From a virus: a DNA stretch of 46,221 nucleotides. Below the pieces are notes generated by a model. The model ran no database searches. It had not been told where the DNA came from and saw nothing but the letters and a program-made list of their open reading frames with translations. Positions 1,407 to 35,117 of the stretch are shown piece after piece (position 1 is the first letter of the stretch; every line of letters starts with the position of its first letter). The DNA lies in the UHGV virus genome UHGV-0126501; one strand, given 5' to 3'. The translations under genes were made by a program, and so were the position numbers.

Positions 1407-1470
1407 GAGCGTCGTTCGCTAATCATGGTCGTCGCCACTATAGCTGGTGGGCGACGACCGGGGTTGAACA

Positions 1471-3927
1471 TTAAAAATCAGCCTGACTCGGGATCAGTTT
1501 TTGCCAGATAGCTGAAACGTATTTTGCCTGGTAACGGGCGTCATCAAGTGCATTATGGCGCTCACCTTCGAATGGAATAGCCGTTCTGGCATCGAAGTCT
1601 ATGGCTTTCCCCAGCTCAACGATTGTGCGTACATCGCGATCGTTGTAGTAACGCCACGGGCAGGGGATCCCCTGCCGTTCGTATGAACGGCGCAAAATCG
1701 TGTTGTCGAAGTTGGCTCCATTTCCCCAGACCTGAACAAAAAATTCACCGGAGTTTTCGTCGATAAATTCTCGTAATTGTAACAGTGCATCATCTAACGG
1801 GATTTCATCGGTCATAATGGCAGATTGCGCTTCGCGTGATTGCTTCAGCCACCATTTAATAGTGTCCCGATCAATGACTCCGCCAGCAGTTTCCAGATCG
1901 ATAGTCTTACTAAATTCCGGTCCCATATCTCCGGTTTGCGGATCGAAAAATATTGCACCTATTGAGATAATCGGGGCATCAGGATTTTTTCCCATGGTTT
2001 CGAGGTCAATCATTAGATGGTCACACGTCCTGCTGGTGGATGTGATTTCGTGATGACCGTTCACCTTAATTGAGTGATCTGCCGCCTCGCCAGTTTTATT
2101 ATCGCTGGCGTGGTCCTGAGCGCTGCCAGCGTTCTCCTTGTGTGGATGTTCAGCGCCTTCCATTTCCTCCGGATCGTTTTCCTGAACTTCAACCTGATTC
2201 TCTTCATCGAATGTTTCCTGGTATGTTGCGTCGCACATCACCGCGCCACAATCAGGGCAGTTGCCGCCACCGCTCTGACCGCAGGCGGTGCAGACTTTTT
2301 CCGGTTCCTGTTGCGCTACTGGCTCAGGTTGTTTCGTTTCTGGCTCGTTTTGTAACTCATTTGGGCTGTTTTGTTCCGCTTTCTGGTCGTTCTGTTCCGT
2401 TTCTTGCTGGTTCTGATTCACTGAATCGCGGGTTTCAATCCCCTTCACCCATTTCGGATCATTCGGGTCGCTAATCCCTGCAACAAATTCACCGCGAGAG
2501 GCCGCAAGCAACTTATCGGCGTCAGGCTGGCTGGTATTGGCTGCCTGCATAATTTTGTTTACTTCGTCAGCGGTAACTTTTACCTGATTAACCGGATCTA
2601 TCTGTGCCTGAGTATCCAGCGATTGCGTGTCCTGGCGATGTTCAGTTGTATCCGGCTCCATTGCTTCAGTCGTTGCCTGTTCATCTGCCATTGCGTCAGA
2701 CGGTTGTGATTTTTCCTCATTATTTTTTTCTTCTTCTGTTTCGCATTCAGCAGCCAGTTCGCGGTTAACTTCTTCCAGGATATCTTTTTCCGGTGTATGT
2801 CGTGCAGCAGCGAGAGTTTCCTCGGTAGGGTTCTCGTGATCAGTCTCCGTTAAATAGGCGTTGATATACCCCTGAAGGCGTCCCGGGTAATGATAAAACT
2901 CAGGGTGTGCGCTCCGGATAAGTGCAAAAATAGCGGCGCGGGAATAATCCAGGATACCCGGGATTGCGCGAAGTGCTGCGGACCATTCTTTGAACGGACT
3001 TTCTTTCTTCCGGACGACTTCTTTTGCGCGACGATAAACGCTGCCCGGAATTTCATAAATATTAAAATCCATCGGAAGTGTGGCCGCTGCAATCTCCACA
3101 TCCAGCGTATCGAAGGTGTGTACTAAATTCGGATTGCGATCGGTTTTGTTCCCTCCACCGGCATTAGCACCGGAAGCCGTGCGGGTGATGCGTGAAACAC
3201 GATTTCCTTTCATCCACTCTTTTGTCAGCAGACCGCGATCGGTGTAGTCAGCGCCCAGGTATGCTTCGAAAAAAGCAGTCATTAGCCCCAGGCCTGAATT
3301 GCCAGGATTAGGGAAAACTTTGTCAGTATCACGCACCAGTTTGTGGAGATCGCGAATTTCCAGTGGATCGAGCAGACTGGTTTTATGCGAAATAGCGAGG
3401 GCAGTAACAGCTGGTAGTTCTTCAGCCCGTGCAATGTGTAATGCCTGGAGTTCGTCGCGTGAAACGTGCGTTACCGGTTTTTCGCTGCCGCGTTGAGCAA
3501 GCCAGCGAATGGGCAGTTCCTGACCGGAAACCGGCAGAAGCATGTTCTCCTCAATCTCAGCCATGTCTTCGCCGTTGACGTTGGTATTGTCAGTGCTGGC
3601 TGGTTTATCCTGAACAGAGGGCGAGGGCGCGATAAGTACCATTGTGATACCATCTTCCCCGCCTTTTTCGTATCGGTTGCAGAATTCGGTATCAAACACG
3701 CCTTCCGGAGGAAGGTCATTCACAACGGGTAAATGGACGCGAACAGGTTTTTTAAAATCCTCTTCGTCAAATCCGGCATCGTCCATTGCGACAACACCGC
3801 GTGATATTGCAACCGATAATTTTTTTGCTGTGCGCCAGTAAAAACCGCCTTTAATCCCAAGACGTTTTCTGACTTTGTCATTTTTGGCTTCGTAATATAG
3901 TGCAATTTCTTCTTTATCAGTGCTCAT
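1471..3927 (-). CDS. Large exonuclease with C-terminal DEDDh (DnaQ-like) 3'-5' exonuclease domain, annotated in prophages as exodeoxyribonuclease VIII-like
   Basis: 818-aa ORF; C-terminus has IDLETMG (Exo I), ...WGNGANFD... and [11 protein letters not shown] (Exo III, H-x4-D) motifs; acidic central linker with a Cys4 cluster ([20 protein letters not shown]). Confidence 0.75.
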
Positions 3928-12450: not shown

Positions 12451-12730
12451 AAGGAAACAAAACAGAAACAACAATTGCCGTTATCTGTTGTTACCATGGC
12501 AAGTAAACGTATCTCAGGCGAGCGCATTGCGCCGTTCTGACGCAGATAAACTAGCCTGGATAGATGGTGCTGGCAATAAAAAATAGCGTTTTCTTATCGG
12601 TGTCGGTAAGATTGCTGCGGGTGCTTGAGGCTGTCTGCCTCGGGCATGCCACTGTAAGGCAGACAGAGAAAAGCCCCAGTTAACATTACGCGTCTTGCAG
12701 GACGCTTAACATTAATCTGAGGCCCAATCT

Positions 12731-12943
12731 ATGCCATACAAACATAGGTTAGCCTCTTACGTGCCGAAAGGCAAGGAGAAGCAGGCTATGAAGCAGCAAA
12801 AGGCGATGTTAATCGCCCTGATCGTCATCTGTTTAACCGTCATAGTGACGGCACTGGTAACGAGGAAAGATCTCTGCGAGGTACGAATCCGAACCGGCCA
12901 GACGGAGGTTGCTGTTTTCGTGGACTACGAATCTGAGAAGTAA
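12731..12943 (+). CDS. Mok-like in-frame N-terminal extension of Hok (modulator of killing)
   Basis: Upstream in-frame ATG gives a 70-aa product, analogous to chromosomal MokC/HokC where Mok is an N-terminally extended Hok. Confidence 0.45.
   Translation: MPYKHRLASYVPKGKEKQAMKQQKAMLIALIVICLTVIVTALVTRKDLCEVRIRTGQTEVAVFVDYESEK
12788..12943 (+). CDS. hok: Hok/Gef-family type I toxin (small membrane peptide)
   Basis: MKQQKAMLIALIVICLTVIVTALVTRKDLCEVRIRTGQTEVAVF... matches the Hok/Gef signature (TM helix, LTRKxLCE, periplasmic tail); SD AAGGAGAAG. Confidence 0.9.
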   Translation: MKQQKAMLIALIVICLTVIVTALVTRKDLCEVRIRTGQTEVAVFVDYESEK

Positions 12944-15287: not shown

Positions 15288-15659
15288 ATGCTCATAGATT
15301 TGGTTTTGCCTTACCCGCCGACGGTGAACACCTACTGGCGACGTCGTGGCAGCACATATTTTGTATCAAAAGCCGGTGAGCGTTATCGCCGGGATGTGGC
15401 ACTTATTGTTCGCCAGCAGCGGTTGAAATTAAACCTGTCCGGAAGGCTGGCGATAAAGATCATTGCAGAGCCGCCGGATAAGCGCCGTCGTGACATGGAC
15501 AATATTCTGAAAGCACCACTGGATGCACTGACACATGCGGGGTTGCTTATCGACGACGAGCAGTTTGATGAAATCAATATAGTGCGCGGTAAGGTCGTTC
15601 CTGGTGGTCGGTTGGGCGTGAAGATTTGCGAAATTAGAGGTGATAGTAATGGGGCGTGA
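15288..15659 (+). CDS. rusA: RusA-family Holliday junction resolvase
   Basis: 123 aa; LPYPPTVNTYW...RRRDMDNILKAPLDALTHAGLLIDDEQF matches RusA conserved regions including the catalytic Asp cluster. Confidence 0.85.
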   Translation: MLIDLVLPYPPTVNTYWRRRGSTYFVSKAGERYRRDVALIVRQQRLKLNLSGRLAIKIIAEPPDKRRRDMDNILKAPLDALTHAGLLIDDEQFDEINIVRGKVVPGGRLGVKICEIRGDSNGA

Positions 15660-16005
15660 TATGTATGAGGTTTTAGACCGCTGGGGGGCATGGGCTGCAG
15701 CAGAAAATAGTGGTGTCGATTGGCAGTCGATAGCGGCAGGCTTCAAGGGGCTTCTACCACACGGTAAAAAGTCACGCCTCCAGTGTGATGATGATGAAGG
15801 TATTATGATAGACGGTTGTGTGGCCCGCCTGCGGAAATATAAACCAGAAGAATATGAGCTGATCATTGCCCACTTTGTTATCGGGATTTCACTGAGGACG
15901 ATTGCAAAAAGAAGAAAATGTTGTGATGGAACTATTCGCAAAGAACTTCAAACAGCTATGGGGTTCATATCAGGTGTTTTGTCGCTGTTAAGCGAAGCCC
16001 AATAG
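15649..16005 (+). CDS. Late-gene antiterminator Q-like protein (short Q family)
   Basis: Position after rusA as in DLP12/lambdoid phages; ATG at 15649 with AGAGG SD, overlapping the rusA stop; Cys-containing C-terminal half. Confidence 0.55.
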   Translation: MGRDMYEVLDRWGAWAAAENSGVDWQSIAAGFKGLLPHGKKSRLQCDDDEGIMIDGCVARLRKYKPEEYELIIAHFVIGISLRTIAKRRKCCDGTIRKELQTAMGFISGVLSLLSEAQ

Positions 16006-16017
16006 GGCTTCGCTTAA
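15988..16017. other. 13-bp perfect stem hairpin spanning the convergent stop codons of Q (+) and the C5-methyltransferase (-)
   Basis: TTAAGCGAAGCCC-AATA-GGGCTTCGCTTAA; no U-tract on either side. Confidence 0.6.
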
Positions 16018-17054
16018 ATCGACGAAATTATAGCTCTCCCAAGTGCTTCAGCCATCTTGGGAGGAACCGCATTCCCAATTTGTTTTGCTTTTGATACTAA
16101 CGACCCCGTGAAGGAATAGTCTAATGGGAATGTCTGTAATAACGCAGCCTCTCTAACTGAAATTGCTCGGTCTTGTTCAGGATGCCCGAAACGTCCATTC
16201 GAATAGCTTATACACCTAGTCGTTAAGCCACTTGCAGGTTTGTCCCATGAAAGACGTCCATAAACATCCGTATGCCCTTTATATTTCTTATGGCATTCTA
16301 AGATCAAATTCTCAGGCCAAGACTCCCTTCCTTTTCCCTCTGGGGTAGCTTTTATGCGTTTAATATTCAGTTCGGACAGCCTGGCTGCTGTGTGATCAAT
16401 TATCTCTTTATGAGTTTCACCTGCAGCTATAGGTGGTAAATTACCGATCCAATCTCTTACCGTTGCAAACGGAGTTTCTACTCCGTCATGAGTTTTGGGT
16501 GGGAGCTTAATATGTGTGTGTCTTGACGCCAGCAAAACAAAACGTTCACGGGTCTGAGGAACTCCGAACCACAAAGCAGGAACAACACCAAAATCAACGT
16601 TGTAGTTATGATGAGTTAAAACTTCAAGAAATTTCTGGAAGTTTCCGTTATTGATATCGACGTTTTGGATTCCAGGCACATTTTCTATCAGTACGAAATC
16701 AGGAACATAATAAGATACAAAACGTGCAAATTCAGTCAGGAGATCTTTCCTGGGATCGTCGTTGTTCCGTGTTTTGTTCTGTTTTGAGAATGGTTGACAT
16801 GGGGCACATCCGCAAAACAAAGTCAGGGCTTTACATTTTTTTGAGTCAGAAATTAGATGATTAATATCTTCAACATGTGTATCTTTGATATCACCATTGA
16901 TGAAATGTGCTAATGGATTGTTTTTCTTGAAGGTATTAGACGAGTCTAGATCAATATCTAAACCAAATATAATTTCCATACCCACTGCTTTTAGGCCTGC
17001 ACTAGTGCCTCCGCAGCCGGAAAAAAAATCGTATACATGTATCTTTTTAGTCAT
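16014..17054 (-). CDS. DNA (cytosine-5)-methyltransferase
   Basis: Motif I FSGCGG, motif IV PCQPFS, motif VI ENV, motif VIII QTRERF, motif X GNAVPP. Confidence 0.9.
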   Translation of the reverse strand: MTKKIHVYDFFSGCGGTSAGLKAVGMEIIFGLDIDLDSSNTFKKNNPLAHFINGDIKDTHVEDINHLISDSKKCKALTLFCGCAPCQPFSKQNKTRNNDDPRKDLLTEFARFVSYYVPDFVLIENVPGIQNVDINNGNFQKFLEVLTHHNYNVDFGVVPALWFGVPQTRERFVLLASRHTHIKLPPKTHDGVETPFATVRDWIGNLPPIAAGETHKEIIDHTAARLSELNIKRIKATPEGKGRESWPENLILECHKKYKGHTDVYGRLSWDKPASGLTTRCISYSNGRFGHPEQDRAISVREAALLQTFPLDYSFTGSLVSKAKQIGNAVPPKMAEALGRAIISSI

Positions 17055-17057
17055 TAT

Positions 17058-18848
17058 CTACCTCACTCTTGGTCTGATAGTATCATTATCTAAAAAGATT
17101 TGCAGCAACTCTCGAGTTTTCGTTAACATTTCATGATCATTCGGTATTTTATTTAGCATTCTAATTTGAGTTTCAAAGATATCATCACTAGTAACATTAT
17201 CCAGCCCAGTATCGAGTTTACAAATTTCCTTAGTAATTTGTTTAGCATCTTGAACGTCTTTCGAAATTAATTCTTTATATTCCTTGTAGTCTCCATAGAC
17301 ATTTTCAATAAGAAATATTTCAGGCGTGTAAACAGGAAGGAAACCGATGCTATCGTGAATGAAATCGATGAAATCTCTTTGCATTTTATATTTTTGGCTA
17401 TGATTAGCTACACCTTTAGAGCCATCGCAGTTAAATTTGATGTCTTGGTTTGTTATTGATTTTATAATATCCTGAAGATTAGGGTTCTCGTTTTCTGGTA
17501 TTGAGTCAGAGGTTGGGTAGTTATCAACAATAGATTGATCACCATCTAGCAAAAAAATAACGTTTTTAACGTTAGCAACACATAATGGGGCTGCTAAAGT
17601 TTGAAAAATACTTCCGGCCCCTCCAGGAAAGTGCTTGACTTCAAAGGAGTTTAATAATGCTTCACCACCTGCTTTAAGAGCTTTCTCTACAAACCTCTTA
17701 GCCAAGCGATCTTCTACAATAACTGTTCTCTTCTCGATTCGCTCACCAAGGATGAAGAAAGATTCTTCTGGGCTGACATTTTGCAGAACATCAACTTTTC
17801 CTAATTTATCATTCAGGCAAAATAATTTTATAGCATTTTTCGGTAAGTCTTTTACTATTGTTGATGAATGAGTGGATATCACAATTTGATGTTTCTTTTT
17901 AATTGCTTGTTCAGATAAAAATTCCATTAATTGGCATTGTGCTGAAGGGTGAAGCGATACTTCAGGTTCGTCTAAAAGAATTAGTGATGCGTTTGGACTG
18001 TCTATTAGTTTATGTACTAAAATAGATACGGCGAATTCTCCACTACCAGCGAATGCTTCAGAATATTTTAAGTTTTCTGACTGAAGTATAATTGTTGGAG
18101 CTTTGTCATTCGTAAATAAGCAATGCTCGATAAGTCTAATACTAGTGTATTTTCGCCCTAAAATTTTGCTGATTGCCTCAACTTTATTTTTGCCTAATAA
18201 AGTATTGACAAAGAGTTTATCTTTTTTACCTTTGTGGGGTTGATATTTTTTTAGATCGTTATCGATGATTTCTCTTAGCATTTGACTGCGTTTTCTAAGA
18301 TAATCCTTCTTGGGATATGTATGAAAGTCAGAATGATAAAAGAATTTATCGAATGCACTTATCGTTGCTCTGAAATCTAAATAGATTACATTTTTATCAA
18401 TGGCTTTCCATCGTGTTTTTAATTGGTTATCCGAAAGTATTGTATCAGGCATAGTAGCCATATTATCTGATTTTAGAGGCCTAGAAGGTTCCCAGTAGTC
18501 AGGATCATTTTCTTTAGAAATTCGGGTTTTGATTACTTCAACAATAGAATCAGTAGCTTTATCATAATATCCATAAATGAATCTTGAGCGACCACCGTCT
18601 TTAATTTCATCCACATCTGTAGAAAACCATAGGCTACCTAATGAATAGTTGTTTGGTGAGCCGAAAAGGGCTCTTAAAACTGAGCTTTTATTCGTTCCAT
18701 TTTGACCGACCAACGCCGTGACTGGATAATCAAAATCGATTTTGCTTCCTTCGGCGAGGTTTTTGAAAAATGGGAAACGAATATGTCTAATAAATGGCTC
18801 AATCTGAGCGGATGCCATAATTTGTTTTAGTTTTAAATGGTTGTTCAT
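17058..18848 (-). CDS. OLD-family-like ABC ATPase with C-terminal TOPRIM-like acidic motifs (putative ATP-dependent nuclease)
   Basis: P-loop GQNGTNKSS, Walker B/D-loop LILLDEPEVSLHP, C-terminal VIVEDR and LLDGDQS motifs; 3 nt upstream of the C5-MTase on the same strand; AT-rich. Confidence 0.65.
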   Translation of the reverse strand: MNNHLKLKQIMASAQIEPFIRHIRFPFFKNLAEGSKIDFDYPVTALVGQNGTNKSSVLRALFGSPNNYSLGSLWFSTDVDEIKDGGRSRFIYGYYDKATDSIVEVIKTRISKENDPDYWEPSRPLKSDNMATMPDTILSDNQLKTRWKAIDKNVIYLDFRATISAFDKFFYHSDFHTYPKKDYLRKRSQMLREIIDNDLKKYQPHKGKKDKLFVNTLLGKNKVEAISKILGRKYTSIRLIEHCLFTNDKAPTIILQSENLKYSEAFAGSGEFAVSILVHKLIDSPNASLILLDEPEVSLHPSAQCQLMEFLSEQAIKKKHQIVISTHSSTIVKDLPKNAIKLFCLNDKLGKVDVLQNVSPEESFFILGERIEKRTVIVEDRLAKRFVEKALKAGGEALLNSFEVKHFPGGAGSIFQTLAAPLCVANVKNVIFLLDGDQSIVDNYPTSDSIPENENPNLQDIIKSITNQDIKFNCDGSKGVANHSQKYKMQRDFIDFIHDSIGFLPVYTPEIFLIENVYGDYKEYKELISKDVQDAKQITKEICKLDTGLDNVTSDDIFETQIRMLNKIPNDHEMLTKTRELLQIFLDNDTIRPRVR

Positions 18849-19450: not shown

Positions 19451-20497
19451 ATGGCCAATACTGTAAAAATATCCAGTTGTGAGTTAATCAACGCTGATTG
19501 CCTGGAATTTATCCAGACCTTACCGGAAAACTCTGTCGATCTGATAGTCACAGACCCGCCATACTTTAAAGTGAAGCCTGAGGGCTGGGATAACCAGTGG
19601 AAGGGCGACGATGATTACCTGAAATGGCTGGATCAGTGTCTGGCGCAATTCTGGCGGGTACTGAAACCTGCCGGAAGTCTCTACCTGTTCTGTGGTCATC
19701 GCCTGGCATCTGATATCGAAATCATGATGCGTGAGCGCTTTAATGTGCTGAACCACATTATCTGGGCGAAGCCGTCCGGACGCTGGAACGGATGCAACAA
19801 GGAAAGCCTGCGGGCGTATTTCCCGGCAACAGAACGCATTCTGTTTGCAGAACATTATCAGGGGCCATACCAGCCCAAAAATGACGGCTATGCGGCAAAG
19901 GGGCGCGAGCTTAAGCAGCACGTGATGGCTCCGCTGATTTCTTACTTTCGTGATGCGCGTGAATCACTGGGGATAACGTCAAAACAGATAGCTGAAGCCA
20001 CCGGAAAGAAAAACATGGCTTCGCACTGGTTTGGTACCAGTCAGTGGCAGTTACCGAATGAGGCCGATTACAGTAAACTACAGGCGCTGTTTGCACGTGT
20101 GGCGGCAGAAAAACACCAGCGCGGTGAACTGGAGCAGCCACACCACCAGCTGGTCAGCACATACAGCGAACTGAACCGGCAATATGCCAGCCTGCTGGAG
20201 GAATACAAATCACTGCGGCGTTATTTTTCCGTATCGGCTGTCGTTCCTTATACGGATGTCTGGACGCACAAGCCCGTGCAGTATTATCCGGGCAAACATC
20301 CCTGTGAAAAACCGGCGGATATGTTGCGTCAGATAATTACTGCCAGCAGTCGTCCTGGCGATTTGGTCGCAGATTTTTTTATGGGGTCGGGGTCGACAAT
20401 AAAAGCGGCACTGTCGCTGGGACGCAGGGCGATTGGCGTGGAACTGGAAGAGGAACGTTTTAATCAGACGGTCAGAGAAATAACGAAAGATTTTTAA
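19451..20497 (+). CDS. DNA methyltransferase, beta-class amino-MTase (N6-adenine or N4-cytosine)
   Basis: Motif IV DPPY (LIVTDPPYF) precedes C-terminal motif I FxGxG (DFFMGSGST). Confidence 0.85.
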   Translation: MANTVKISSCELINADCLEFIQTLPENSVDLIVTDPPYFKVKPEGWDNQWKGDDDYLKWLDQCLAQFWRVLKPAGSLYLFCGHRLASDIEIMMRERFNVLNHIIWAKPSGRWNGCNKESLRAYFPATERILFAEHYQGPYQPKNDGYAAKGRELKQHVMAPLISYFRDARESLGITSKQIAEATGKKNMASHWFGTSQWQLPNEADYSKLQALFARVAAEKHQRGELEQPHHQLVSTYSELNRQYASLLEEYKSLRRYFSVSAVVPYTDVWTHKPVQYYPGKHPCEKPADMLRQIITASSRPGDLVADFFMGSGSTIKAALSLGRRAIGVELEEERFNQTVREITKDF

Positions 20498-20715
20498 TTC
20501 AGTGATGATATAAGTTGTATATTTCTGATACAAATGTATACACATATTTAAAACTGAACACCAAATATATTTTTGATGTCTGAAAAACTGTCGTTAGTAT
20601 TCTGACTGGTCCGGAAGGTGGTTGTCTTTATGTTCACAGGGGTGTTGCTTGCCACCGGAAAGACCAGTGCTGGCTTTCCTGGTAATTCGTGTGATTCCGG
20701 AAGCCAGTACAGTAT

Positions 20716-20792
20716 GCGGGTATCGTATAATGGCTATTACCTCAGCTTTCCAGGCTGATGATGTGGGTTCGATTCCCGTCACCCGCTCTCCA
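20716..20792 (+). tRNA. tRNA-Gly(UCC)-like element, probably degenerate
   Basis: Cloverleaf can be drawn: acceptor GCGGGTA, D-arm with GG, anticodon stem TCAGC/GCTGA with loop TTTCCAG (anticodon TCC), T-loop GGTTCGATTCC. But A7-C66 mismatch, two G-U pairs in the T-stem, and a TCTCCA 3' end instead of CCA. Confidence 0.45.
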
Positions 20793-21072
20793 GTAAAACT
20801 GATGAGTTATAGCTTTATTATCAGCACTGGCGAATTTTCGTGAAGAACAGACCTGGCAGGTGGATTTGTTGTTCTTCATTCTGTAGACCTGACCGCCTAC
20901 AGTTTCAGTGCTTTTTTTGTAGCCATCCCTGCATGTTGCAGGGATGAGGTGATACCAGAATGCGTCGTTGTCTGTTTCCGGGCCTACGATTTGCCAGTTT
21001 GCACAGCAGGCTGACGGCGCATTCTTATAACATCTATACAAGTAAACTCTGTTTCATCATTACATTGCGTTA

Positions 21073-21100
21073 GCCCGCCTTATGTGTGGGCATTTTTTTT
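21073..21100 (+). terminator. Terminator-like hairpin with T8 run
   Basis: GCCCGCC...GGGC stem then TTTTTTTT. Confidence 0.5.
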
Positions 21101-21221
21101 ACCTATGCATATGGCTCGCTGCGGCGGGCCTTTTTCATATCCGCGCCACGCCTGGCGCACATCACATCAGATAGCGCCACACAAAAGGTATCTGCGGGTG
21201 CCTTTGACGGGGTGTTTTTTT

Positions 21222-21246
21222 ACGGGCCGACAGAGGCCCTTTTTTA
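21222..21246 (+). terminator. Rho-independent terminator just upstream of the holin gene (tR'-like position)
   Basis: GGGCC-GACAGA-GGCCC + T6, followed by the SD/ATG of the first lysis gene. Confidence 0.65.
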
Positions 21247-21264
21247 TTTACAGGAGAAAAACGT

Positions 21265-21654
21265 ATGTCTGAACCCTTGTCCGGTTCCGGCACGGCTGCG
21301 GCGCTCGGCGGGGCGACGGTATTCGGGCTGTTTACCGGAACGGATTTCGGGATTGTGTTTGGTGCATTCGCAGGGGCGCTGTTTGTGGCCACGATACCAC
21401 AGCAGATTTCTGTCTGGCGTGTGGCAGCGCATTTTCTGGTGTCGTTCATTGTTGGCGTGCTGGGGGCGGATGTGATGGCGTCTTACCTGGTTGAAAAACT
21501 GAATCTCCACAGCACATCTCTCGACGCGCTTTGCGCGGTACTGGTATCGGTGGTGTCGGTGAAGATTCTCTCATTCATCCACCAGCAGGATATCGCATCG
21601 CTGGTATCCGGGCTGTTCTCCCGTCTGCGGGGTGGAGGCGGTAATGTTAAGTAA
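21265..21654 (+). CDS. Putative holin
   Basis: First gene of the lysis cassette; Gly/Ala-rich TM segments (TVFGLFTGTDFGIVFGAFAGALFVATI); SD AGGAG. Confidence 0.6.
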   Translation: MSEPLSGSGTAAALGGATVFGLFTGTDFGIVFGAFAGALFVATIPQQISVWRVAAHFLVSFIVGVLGADVMASYLVEKLNLHSTSLDALCAVLVSVVSVKILSFIHQQDIASLVSGLFSRLRGGGGNVK

Positions 21655-34687: not shown

Positions 34688-34714
34688 TTACCCCGGTATG
34701 CCGGGGTTTTTTGT
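34688..34714 (+). terminator. Rho-independent terminator after V
   Basis: CCCCGG-TATG-CCGGGG + T6. Confidence 0.7.
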
Positions 34715-34727
34715 TTACGGAGGGGAC

Positions 34728-35117
34728 ATGTTTCTGAAACAGGACACATTTAACTACGGTAATCAGTCTGTGGTACTGACGGAATTATCCGGACTTCAGC
34801 GGGTGGAGTATCTGGCGTTTGTTCAGAAACGGACAGCTGAGTTTGACGCCCTGGATGATGCCATGCCGGTGGCGGATCGTCAGATTGAATTTCTGCGTAT
34901 GGGGATGGATATCAATGCCTGGCTGGTTTCCCGGTCAATGTGGAATACGGACCCGTCACAGGATGTGGATGCGCTGAATGAGGATGTAAAAAACACCTGG
35001 TCTTATGACGCGCTTGGCGACGGGGGCAGTCTGGTTTTATCCCTGAGTGGTATGCCGGTCTCCACCGGTGATGTTCAGAACGGTGAACAGGTTCCCCTGA
35101 CACCGGAAAAGTCCTGA
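34728..35117 (+). CDS. G: Tail assembly chaperone G
   Basis: MFLKQDTF...VVLTELSGLQRVEYLAF... resembles recalled lambda gpG; immediately precedes a -1-frame ORF (T). Confidence 0.85.
   Translation: MFLKQDTFNYGNQSVVLTELSGLQRVEYLAFVQKRTAEFDALDDAMPVADRQIEFLRMGMDINAWLVSRSMWNTDPSQDVDALNEDVKNTWSYDALGDGGSLVLSLSGMPVSTGDVQNGEQVPLTPEKS

What the first reader, a model, noticed from the sequence alone, without database searches (positions are those of the whole stretch)
20716..20792. Degenerate glyT-like tRNA-Gly(UCC) element in the Q-to-lysis moron region
Seen: a full cloverleaf can be drawn with anticodon loop TTTCCAG and T-loop GGTTCGATTCC, strongly resembling recalled E. coli tRNA-Gly(UCC), but with an acceptor mismatch, weakened T-stem and TCTCCA instead of CCA. 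Established: lambdoid and Stx phages carry tRNA genes at this position (ileZ-argN-argO in 933W). It could be a decaying phage tRNA, a non-canonical tRNA, or a tRNA-derived regulatory element.
Basis: partly seen in the sequence, partly recalled or inferred. Interest (0 to 1): 0.5.

Follow-up and report, generated by a model that had tools for sequence, protein, structure and literature searches.

The report
Worn prophage copy of glycine tRNA
This is a real tRNA-Gly(UCC) gene that a lambda-like prophage copied from its host's glyT gene, a known and routinely annotated kind of phage cargo, and this copy belongs to a rare lineage that has collected damaging-looking mutations and is probably losing function.

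Summary
ARAGORN calls tRNA-Gly(UCC) at 20716-20788, and Rfam's tRNA model scores it 49.7 bits (threshold 29). It lies between Q/DNA methylase and the holin-endolysin genes of a lambdoid prophage. It is a captured copy of host glyT. 336 of 5,426 complete E. coli genomes carry such a prophage copy, and PGAP annotates them as tRNA-Gly.

The common form ("type A") differs from glyT only by a compensated pair (U6-A67). It keeps its CCA and is identical across diverged flanks. The window's copy belongs to a rare lineage ("type B": 13 genomes, 10 viral contigs). Type B has C32U, A38G, an A7·C66 mismatch and a CT insertion that displaces CCA. The window adds C50U and a private C65U.

Model scores fall in steps: 65.6, 54.3, 51.6, then 49.7 bits. 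Sister alleles carry G53A or a broken acceptor stem. Type B is no better conserved than its adjacent spacers.

My best reading (about 0.6) is a decaying rare-codon tRNA gene. A working, retuned tRNA matured by trimming plus CCA addition is not excluded (about 0.3). It is a new member of a known kind and of low interest.

The parts
20716..20787 (+). tRNA-Gly(UCC) body from G1 to discriminator U73. It is glyT-derived and of the 'type B' allele class, with additional C50U and a private C65U.
   Evidence: ARAGORN. Rfam RF00005 at 49.7 bits. Pair-by-pair layout. Allele comparison.
20788..20792 (+). CUCCA tail. A CT insertion pushes the encoded CCA 2 nt away from the discriminator.
   Evidence: Direct reading. 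Present in all type-B copies from independent assemblies and absent from all 120 type-A copies.
20747..20753 (+). Anticodon loop UUUCCAG (U32, G38), where host glyT and type A have CUUCCAA.
   Evidence: The MFE fold pairs U32·G38 and U33-A37, leaving a 3-nt loop.
20669..20715 (+). Remnant of a thrU-like tRNA directly upstream. Intact tRNA-Thr(UGU) or tRNA-Arg(UCU) occupies this position in related prophages.
   Evidence: 19 of 27 positions identical to the 3' end of the prophage tRNA-Thr when anchored on the tRNA-Gly start (p about 2e-5). Alignment. Not called by ARAGORN or Rfam.
20604..20670 (+). Conserved leader hairpin upstream of the tRNA cassette. Function unknown.
   Evidence: RNAalifold on 8 distinct haplotypes gives 19 pairs, 4 of them with compensatory double changes.
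20573..20600 (+). Weak sigma-70-like promoter candidate (TTGATG, 16 nt, TAGTAT). This is an inference only.
   Evidence: Read from the sequence. It falls below the scan threshold. Related prophages have TTGAAA or TTGCGA, 16 nt, then TATTAT, TATCAT or TAATAT at a comparable position.
21073..21140 (+). Two tandem intrinsic-terminator-like hairpins between the tRNA and the holin gene. A third lies at 21224-21249.
   Evidence: Terminator scan found 3, against 0.9 expected from shuffles.

Best explanation
The element is a phage-borne tRNA-Gly(UCC) gene, copied from the host thrU-(tyrU)-glyT tRNA cluster. It sits in the late-region cargo slot of a lambdoid prophage, between Q/DNA methylase and the lysis genes.

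The family's role is inferred from the standard model for phage tRNAs in this slot: it supplies the scarce tRNA that reads GGA/GGG while the phage's late genes are expressed.

The window's copy belongs to a rare derived lineage (type B). In that lineage the anticodon loop is altered (U32, G38), the last acceptor pair is broken (A7·C66), and a CT insertion moves the encoded CCA 2 nt out of register. The window has further weakened the T stem (C50U, and C65U found only here).

The most likely reading is a copy under relaxed selection that is decaying. It is probably still transcribed and cut by RNase P, but it is likely to be poorly matured at the 3' end and poorly charged, or not charged at all, so it contributes little as a tRNA.

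Shown here: identity, origin, position, the allele series and the lack of excess conservation. Inferred: transcription, processing and loss of activity.
For: Identity:
- ARAGORN and Rfam both call it.
- PGAP annotates tRNA-Gly at the same spot in 336 of 5,426 complete E. coli genomes.
- GenBank annotates tRNA-Gly in phage SerU-LTIIb.

Origin:
- Type A equals MG1655 glyT except for a compensated C6-G67 to U6-A67 change.
- In many prophages it lies 3 nt after a thrU-identical tRNA-Thr.

The intact form is constrained:
- 107 of 120 IMG/VR type-A copies have the canonical 3' half, and all that are fully read encode CCA, across 23 downstream contexts.
- Type A is 100% identical across three diverged upstream haplotypes.

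Rare-codon rationale:
- GGA is 16.8% of Gly codons in the window's ORFs against 7.8% in 42 K-12 genes. GGA+GGG is 41% against 20% (p = 1e-25).

Decay of type B:
- Rfam bits fall stepwise: glyT 64.9, type A 65.6, type B 54.3, B+C50U 51.6, window 49.7, B+C62U 46.8, B+G53A 45.6.
- L013 has lost the near-universal G53-C61 pair.
- L194 has a broken acceptor 3' strand and ARAGORN no longer calls it.
- 9 of 10 IMG/VR type-B copies depart from the lineage's founding allele, against 13 of 120 for type A (Fisher p = 2e-7; p = 0.005 if the modal B allele is the reference). These sequences are not independent.
- Inside the conserved block that carries type B, the tRNA has 4 variable sites in 77 nt, against about 8 in the 109 nt of adjacent spacers.
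- The neighbouring thrU-like tRNA has already decayed in this lineage.
- The window's exact allele was found in no other sequence.
- MFE folds put the type-B anticodon arm into a 7-bp stem with a 3-nt loop and misfold the window's T arm.
- E. coli tRNA genes other than selC all encode CCA directly (PMC3439896).
Against: - The gene is still called as a tRNA by every predictor, well above threshold, and PGAP does not flag it as a pseudogene.
- All E. coli GlyRS identity elements listed in PMC9976931 are intact: U73, G1-C72, C2-G71, C35 and C36. So are U8, G18-G19, U33, G53-C61 and the T loop.
- The three later C-to-U changes all keep pairing as G·U.
- G38 also occurs in perfectly paired phage tRNA-Gly genes that show compensatory changes (L212 and L201), so G38 alone is not damage.
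- Loss of an in-register CCA need not be fatal. Buchnera tRNAs without an encoded CCA are all matured by CCA addition (PMC3439896). From my own knowledge, phage T4 CCA-less tRNAs are matured in E. coli by RNase BN plus the CCA-adding enzyme.
- Nucleotides 1-49 are invariant in all type-B copies, and the type-B block has spread onto two upstream and two downstream haplotypes.
- The samples are small and phylogenetically non-independent.
- There are no expression data.
Confidence: 0.6

Rival explanations
1. The allele is a fully functional but retuned tRNA-Gly(UCC). The CUCCA tail is removed (RNase BN/Z or exonucleases) and CCA is added by the CCA-adding enzyme. The U32·G38 pair and the weakened 49-65 and 50-64 T-stem pairs change decoding range, EF-Tu affinity or ribosome affinity, or make the tRNA insensitive to a host tRNA-targeting nuclease.
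For: - All GlyRS identity elements and tertiary-fold nucleotides are intact (PMC9976931).
- The gene is still a confident tRNA call.
[quoted passage not shown] These are the same positions changed here.
- C32·A38 to U32·G38 changes both members of the 32-38 pair.
- A38G recurs on at least 5 phage tRNA-Gly backbones, some of them perfectly paired.
- Anticodon-loop substitutions in phage tRNAs have been proposed as a way to evade nucleases (PMC10264068).
- CCA-less genes can be matured (PMC3439896).
- The type-B block persists on several flanking haplotypes in mostly bovine E. coli from several countries.
Against: - Type B is rare (about 4% of prophage tRNA-Gly-bearing genomes) and has not displaced type A.
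- G38 is a minority everywhere: 2 of 99 in one lineage and 1 on the type-A backbone.
- The lineage also yields clearly damaged alleles, G53A and a broken acceptor stem.
- It is no more conserved than its flanks.
- No nuclease specific for tRNA-Gly(UCC) turned up in the papers searched.
- The CT insertion and A7·C66 have no obvious benefit.
- C-to-U changes opposite G always give G·U, so kept pairing is not evidence of selection.
Confidence: 0.3
2. The element no longer acts in decoding but is kept as a tRNA-shaped RNA or DNA element. It could be an RNase P/RNase E processing site that segments or stabilises the late transcript, a decoy for tRNA-binding toxins, or a conserved sequence that serves as a crossover point for exchange of phage modules.
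For: - Module boundaries fall at the tRNA. Type A and type B share upstream haplotypes but have different downstream flanks starting right after the tRNA.
- Nucleotides 1-49 are invariant, while all five later changes lie in nt 50-72 (p about 0.006 if sites were equally likely).
- A conserved, covarying leader hairpin and tandem terminators frame the cassette.
Against: - Recombination at a conserved sequence is a side effect of conservation and needs no selected function.
- The invariant 5' part is identical to type A and can be refreshed by recombination with the many type-A copies (up to 5 places per genome).
- There is no evidence for a processing or decoy role, and nothing distinguishes type B from type A in this respect.
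Confidence: 0.08
3. It is a chance cloverleaf or an assembly artefact.
For: None.
Against: - Rfam E = 8.5e-08 over the window.
- 90% identity to glyT.
- The same allele family, including the CT insertion, appears in over 20 independent assemblies.
Confidence: 0.01

Closest known systems
E. coli glyT (tRNA-Gly2, anticodon UCC) in the thrU-tyrU-glyT-thrT-tufB cluster
   Same: The length class, D arm, anticodon stem, anticodon UCC, T loop, variable loop, discriminator U73 and positions 1-5/68-72 are all identical. 65 of 72 positions match.
   Different: The window has C6U/G67A (compensated and shared with all prophage copies), C32U, A38G, C50U, C65U, U66C (which creates A7·C66), and a CT insertion that gives U73-CUCCA instead of U73-CCA. 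It also lies in a prophage late region rather than in the tufB operon.
Prophage tRNA-Gly 'type A', as annotated in Escherichia phage SerU-LTIIb (KU052038) and by PGAP in about 320 complete E. coli genomes
   Same: The gene family, the U6-A67 signature and the position upstream of the holin genes are the same. Some copies also share the same methylase and the same upstream leader and thrU remnant.
   Different: Type A keeps the glyT anticodon loop, a fully paired acceptor stem and an in-register CCA. It is nearly invariant. The window's allele has six further changes and scores 16 bits lower.
ileZ-argN-argO tRNA genes of Stx phages such as 933W
   Same: They occupy the same slot (Q, DNA methylase, tRNA genes, cargo/lysis genes; figure legend in PMC3491183). 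The rationale, tRNAs for codons rare in E. coli, is the same and comes from my own knowledge of the 933W literature.
   Different: The tRNA species is different (Gly UCC, derived from glyT) and there is a single gene. No toxin gene lies downstream in this window.
tRNA genes without an encoded CCA that are matured by trimming plus CCA addition (Buchnera tRNAs; phage T4 tRNAs)
   Same: There is no CCA directly after the discriminator, so a working product would need 3' trimming and the CCA-adding enzyme (PMC3439896; the T4/RNase BN case is from my own knowledge).
   Different: Here a CCA is still present 2 nt out of register. That could stall exonucleolytic trimming at the wrong place. The state is a recent 2-nt insertion in a lineage whose relatives all encode CCA.
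[quoted passage not shown]
   Same: Both have the C65U substitution and a change at the 50-64 pair in the same tRNA species. In that study these changes altered which GGN codons the tRNA could decode.
   Different: M. mycoides has A50-U64 and C32, whereas the window has U50·G64 and U32·G38. No functional data exist for the window's combination.

Membership tests
tRNA (Rfam RF00005) / bacterial-type tRNA gene | Cloverleaf that scores above the curated covariance-model threshold | tested here: met
   49.7 bits against a gathering score of 29, with a full-length match to model positions 1-71.
tRNA (Rfam RF00005) / bacterial-type tRNA gene | Call by an independent tRNA predictor | tested here: met
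   ARAGORN reports tRNA-Gly(tcc) at 20716-20788. PGAP annotates the near-identical alleles in L002, L005 and L006 as tRNA-Gly without a pseudogene flag. tRNAscan-SE itself could not be run here.
tRNA (Rfam RF00005) / bacterial-type tRNA gene | Conserved tertiary-fold nucleotides (U8, G18-G19, U33, G53-C61, T-loop UUCRAUU) | tested here: met
   All are present by direct reading.
tRNA (Rfam RF00005) / bacterial-type tRNA gene | Seven fully paired acceptor-stem pairs and a stable T stem | tested here: not met
   A7·C66 is a mismatch, and G49·U65 and U50·G64 are wobble pairs. The MFE fold of the window allele misfolds the T arm.
tRNA (Rfam RF00005) / bacterial-type tRNA gene | Open 7-nt anticodon loop | tested here: inconclusive
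   The sequence allows a 7-nt loop. The MFE fold instead pairs U32·G38 and U33-A37, leaving 3 nt. Folding in the cell cannot be tested here.
E. coli-type tRNA gene | CCA encoded directly after the discriminator | tested here: not met
   The sequence is U73-CUCCA. All E. coli tRNA genes except selC encode CCA (PMC3439896), as do all fully read type-A copies.
tRNA-Gly accepted by E. coli GlyRS | Identity set U73, G1-C72, C2-G71, C35, C36 | tested here: met
   All are present. The identity set is taken from PMC9976931. Charging itself cannot be tested here.
glyT-derived prophage tRNA-Gly family | Sequence homology to glyT with the prophage signature U6-A67 | tested here: met
   65 of 72 positions identical to MG1655 glyT, with U6-A67 present.
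glyT-derived prophage tRNA-Gly family | Purifying selection on the gene (more conserved than its flanks) | tested here: not met
   Type A has 0 differences across three diverged upstream haplotypes. Type B has 4 variable sites in 77 nt against about 8 in 109 nt of adjacent spacers, and it includes damaged sister alleles. The sample is small.
Late-region tRNA cargo of lambdoid phages (Stx-phage type) | Located between Q/methylase and the lysis genes, on the late-gene strand | tested here: met
   Pfam assignments of the neighbouring genes. The layout matches the figure legend in PMC3491183.
Late-region tRNA cargo of lambdoid phages (Stx-phage type) | Reads a codon that is rare in the host and enriched in phage genes | tested here: met
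   GGA is 16.8% of Gly codons in the window against 7.8% in 42 K-12 genes, p = 5e-10.
Nuclease-evading phage tRNA (van den Berg et al. 2023 hypothesis) | Anticodon-loop substitutions relative to the host's cognate tRNA | tested here: met
   C32U and A38G relative to glyT.
Nuclease-evading phage tRNA (van den Berg et al. 2023 hypothesis) | A host nuclease known to cut that tRNA at or near the changed positions | tested here: inconclusive
   The papers found and read report no nuclease specific for tRNA-Gly(UCC). This is absence of evidence only.
Functional tRNA (any) | Transcribed, processed to a CCA-ended product of about 75 nt, and aminoacylated | not testable with these tools
   No expression data were available.

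The most novel reading that the evidence does not exclude
Type-B alleles, including the window's, may be selected, working variants of tRNA-Gly(UCC). Their paired change at 32-38 (C·A to U·G) and weakened 49-65 and 50-64 T-stem pairs fall at positions shown experimentally to set the decoding range of this very tRNA. Under this reading those changes retune GGN decoding or EF-Tu affinity during late gene expression, or they protect the tRNA from an as yet unknown tRNA-Gly-targeting nuclease. The out-of-register CCA would be handled by the trimming plus CCA-addition route. The recurrence of A38G on at least five independent phage tRNA-Gly backbones would then be convergent adaptation.
Probability: 0.12. 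Interest if true: 0.55.

Novelty: new member of a known kind. Interest (0 to 1): 0.22.

Why it matters
In practice it matters little. Phage-borne tRNAs in the late region of lambdoid prophages are well known, and this tRNA-Gly is already annotated in hundreds of E. coli genomes.

The comparative picture has modest value. It shows a captured host tRNA gene at several stages side by side: intact and strongly conserved (type A), progressively damaged (type B through to the window's allele), and dead (L194, and the neighbouring thrU-like remnant). That makes it a clean natural series for studying how prophage tRNA cargo is gained and lost.

If the minority reading is right, and the variant is a retuned or nuclease-resistant tRNA, it would add a temperate-coliphage example to the current debate on why phages carry tRNAs.

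Tried and rejected
- Link to the lambda-type G/GT tail-chaperone frameshift. That frameshift uses the slippery site G GGA AAG, whose GGA codon is read by this tRNA species. The seven GGGAAAG sites in the window do not fall at the end of the G-like ORF (34698-35117) upstream of the tape-measure gene, so I dropped the idea.
- glyT frameshift-suppressor (sufS) alleles as a precedent for the altered positions. The relevant paper is not in the searchable library, so this remains only a recollection and was not used.
- An alternative acceptor-stem register that would put the displaced CCA in frame. It would need upstream bases A(-2) and U(-1) to pair with C and U, and they do not. Rejected by direct reading.
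- Whether U6-A67 points to a foreign donor. It is the native chromosomal form in Pseudidiomarina and relatives, but those have U50-A64 T stems, so this says nothing about origin.
- Search for intermediates linked to the type-B downstream flank. In viral contigs and metagenomes that flank is only ever linked to type-B alleles. The nearest intermediate is L208/L215 (G38 + C66 with CCA intact) in another flank context.
- Rfam at a permissive E-value on 20480-21280 found no second tRNA and no other credible family.
- A free local alignment of the upstream element to thrU was not significant (48 of 500 shuffles scored as well). Only the position-anchored comparison was significant.
- An association between type B and the defence-like reverse gene pair at 16014-18848. 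Other type-B prophages carry different genes there, so there is no link.

Full report

Yes. ARAGORN finds one tRNA in the window, tRNA-Gly with anticodon UCC, at 20716-20788 on the + strand. Rfam's tRNA model matches 20716-20787 end to end at 49.7 bits, against a gathering score of 29, with E = 8.5e-08 for the whole window.

- The anticodon loop is UUUCCAG (20747-20753).
- The T loop is UUCGAUU, closed by G53-C61.
- There is one acceptor mismatch, A7·C66.
- There are two wobble pairs in the T stem, G49·U65 and U50·G64.
- Discriminator U73 (20787) is followed by CUCCA (20788-20792) rather than CCA.

In order they are: Q antiterminator (15640-16005), a reverse-strand pair of C5 methylase and ATPase, an N6/N4 DNA methylase (19451-20497), the tRNA, two holins, a GH108 endolysin, and Nu1/gpA terminase.

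**2. What is it?**

It is a copy of the host gene glyT carried by a lambdoid prophage. I compared it with MG1655 glyT and with prophage copies from RefSeq genomes, a GenBank phage record and IMG/VR contigs. The comparison shows three layers.

- **Type A, the common prophage form.** It equals glyT except for C6-G67 changed to U6-A67, a compensated pair. It keeps the glyT anticodon loop (CUUCCAA) and an in-register CCA. In many prophages it lies 3 nt downstream of a tRNA-Thr(UGU) that scores the same as host thrU (73.8 bits). The cassette therefore derives from the host thrU-tyrU-glyT cluster.
- **Type B, a rare lineage.** It adds C32U, A38G, U66C (which makes A7·C66) and a CT insertion that turns U73-CCA into U73-CUCCA.
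- **Further changes within type B.** Some copies add C50U. On top of that, individual copies add C62U, G53A or, in the window only, C65U. One more relative, L194, has a broken acceptor 3' strand (CACCGTT), and ARAGORN no longer calls it.

In frequency terms:
- 336 of 5,426 complete E. coli genomes carry a prophage tRNA-Gly.
- 13 of those carry the type-B block, mostly isolates from cattle.
- None has the window's exact allele. The best match is 98.7% over 151 nt.

**3. Evidence on function**

The intact family looks like an ordinary working phage tRNA.
- 107 of 120 type-A copies have the canonical 3' half, and every copy that is fully read encodes CCA, across 23 different downstream contexts.
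- Type A is 100% identical on three upstream haplotypes that differ from each other at many sites.
- The codon it reads is used more by the phage than by the host. GGA is 16.8% of Gly codons in the window's ORFs against 7.8% in 42 K-12 core genes, and GGA+GGG is 41% against 20%. This fits the standard rare-codon supply model for tRNAs in this slot.

Type B looks different.
- Covariance-model scores fall in steps: glyT 64.9, type A 65.6, type B 54.3, B+C50U 51.6, the window 49.7, B+C62U 46.8 and B+G53A 45.6 bits.
- 9 of 10 IMG/VR type-B copies depart from the lineage's founding allele, against 13 of 120 for type A. Fisher's test gives p = 2e-7, or p = 0.005 against the modal B allele. The sequences are related, so these are not true probabilities.
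- In the block of near-identity that carries type B (about -55 to +131), the tRNA has 4 variable sites in 77 nt and the adjacent spacers have about 8 in 109 nt. The tRNA is therefore no better conserved than non-coding DNA next to it.
- The downstream flank of type B is about 62% identical to the flank of a type-A copy in L195/L196. The type-B changes are therefore derived within a module that once carried a canonical gene.
- Predicted folds put the type-B anticodon arm into a 7-bp stem with a 3-nt loop (U32·G38, U33-A37), and the window's T arm misfolds.
- The neighbouring thrU-like tRNA in this lineage is already a remnant (20669-20715). It matches 19 of 27 anchored positions, p about 2e-5, and no predictor calls it.
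- The displaced CCA is the most serious defect. E. coli tRNA genes other than selC all encode CCA directly (PMC3439896), and I could not find an alternative acceptor register that would restore one.

**4. Evidence against simple decay**

- The gene is still a confident tRNA call, and PGAP does not flag its near-identical relatives as pseudogenes.
- All GlyRS identity elements (U73, G1-C72, C2-G71, C35, C36; PMC9976931) and the tertiary-fold nucleotides are intact.
- G38 is not damage in itself. It recurs on at least five phage tRNA-Gly backbones, including perfectly paired genes with compensatory 5-68 and 50-64 changes (L212 and L201). It is a minority everywhere, though: 2 of 99 in one lineage.
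- Loss of an in-register CCA can be repaired in principle. Buchnera tRNAs without an encoded CCA are all matured by CCA addition (PMC3439896). From my own knowledge, T4 CCA-less tRNAs are matured in E. coli.
- A study of E. coli tRNA-Gly(UCC) found that the M. mycoides T arm (C65U plus the 50-64 pair) widened decoding and that C32U restricted it (PMC10853795). Those are the positions changed here. I treat this as a lead only. The three later changes are all C-to-U at C residues paired with G, the commonest kind of mutation, and such changes give G·U automatically.
- All five later changes lie in nt 50-72, while nt 1-49 never vary (p about 0.006 under equal rates). The invariant 5' part is identical to type A. 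Type B occurs on two upstream haplotypes that are shared with type A, so recombination with the abundant type-A copies explains this without selection.

**5. Verdict on mechanism**

Most likely (about 0.6), this is a rare-codon tRNA gene in a lineage under relaxed selection. It is probably still transcribed with the late operon, and possibly also from a weak promoter of its own (TTGATG-16-TAGTAT at 20573-20600, which is below the scan threshold). It is probably still recognised by RNase P. Its 3' end is likely to be poorly matured, and it is likely to be poorly charged or not charged at all.

A working, retuned or nuclease-resistant tRNA is the main rival (about 0.3). No nuclease specific for tRNA-Gly(UCC) appeared in the papers I searched. 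A non-decoding role, as a processing site, a decoy or a recombination joint, has no specific support (about 0.08).

**6. Comparison with what is known, and novelty**

Phage tRNAs between Q/methylase and the lysis or toxin genes are a known feature of lambdoid and Stx phages (layout in PMC3491183). This tRNA-Gly family is already annotated in GenBank (phage SerU-LTIIb) and in RefSeq. The window's allele is an undescribed, damaged member of that family, so I rate it a new member of a known kind and of low interest.

**7. Limits**

There are no expression, processing or charging data. tRNAscan-SE's pseudogene test could not be run. The allele samples are small and related by descent. The type-A sample from IMG/VR was ascertained with a pattern that fixed nt 1-48, so only nt 49-76 are comparable between the two lineages.

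Noticed in passing
window 20604-20670: There is a conserved hairpin in the leader upstream of the tRNA cassette: an outer helix, a purine-rich internal loop (GGAAG / GGAAA) and an inner helix. Across 8 distinct haplotypes, 4 of the 19 predicted pairs show compensatory double changes, for example GGTGG/CCACC against GACGG/CCGTC. Its function is unknown and it has no Rfam match.
   Followed up: partly
window 20669-20715: This is the remnant of a thrU-like tRNA directly upstream of the tRNA-Gly. It matches 19 of 27 anchored positions at the 3' end of the prophage tRNA-Thr and forms its own 9-bp hairpin (CTGGCTTTC/GGAAGCCAG). Related prophages have an intact tRNA-Thr(UGU) or tRNA-Arg(UCU) at this position.
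   Followed up: partly
L001 (phage SerU-LTIIb) 1122-1194 and 3028-3100: Two nearly identical thrU-derived tRNA genes differ in the anticodon. One is UGU (Thr) and the other UCU (annotated Arg, which reads the rare AGA codon). This is an apparent anticodon switch on a tRNA-Thr body. Which synthetase charges it is unknown.
   Followed up: no
L195 (E. coli A10) 1425-3015: This prophage tRNA cluster has tRNA-Thr, tRNA-Gly, an ARAGORN 'tRNA-Tyr' with the unnatural anticodon ATA (2185-2266), and a second, degenerate tRNA-Gly with G38 and two stem mismatches (2941-3015). This suggests the whole thrU-tyrU-glyT cluster was captured and then partly decayed.
   Followed up: no
L198-L216 and L201/L212 (IMG/VR contigs): [quoted passage not shown] It is always a minority: 29 G38 loci against more than 217 A38 loci. 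It could be a mutational hotspot or a weakly favoured variant.
   Followed up: partly
window 16014-18848 (- strand): A reverse-oriented gene pair is inserted between Q and the late region. It consists of a C5 cytosine DNA methylase (346 aa) and a 596-aa ATPase. The ATPase matches PADLOC HEC-04 (120 bits) and ATPase-Toprim_I-B (82 bits), with weaker OLD/AriA/GajA-like hits. It is a candidate defence cargo. Other type-B prophages carry different genes at this spot.
   Followed up: partly
window 12619-12793: Rfam finds a full-length sok antitoxin RNA (117 bits), which implies a hok/sok-type toxin-antitoxin locus in the prophage early region.
   Followed up: no
window 21073-21249 and 20924-20946: Three intrinsic-terminator-like hairpins lie between the tRNA and the holin gene (21073-21100, 21113-21140 and 21224-21249), and a strong 10-bp hairpin without a T run lies at 20924-20946. 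Together with the weak promoter candidate, this gives the tRNA cassette a promoter-gene-terminator layout.
   Followed up: partly
RefSeq hits H32-H44: Genomes carrying the type-B tRNA block come almost entirely from cattle (cow, calf, bovine faeces, in Japan and the USA), plus one from a baboon. Type A is common in pig, human, mouse and poultry isolates.
   Followed up: no
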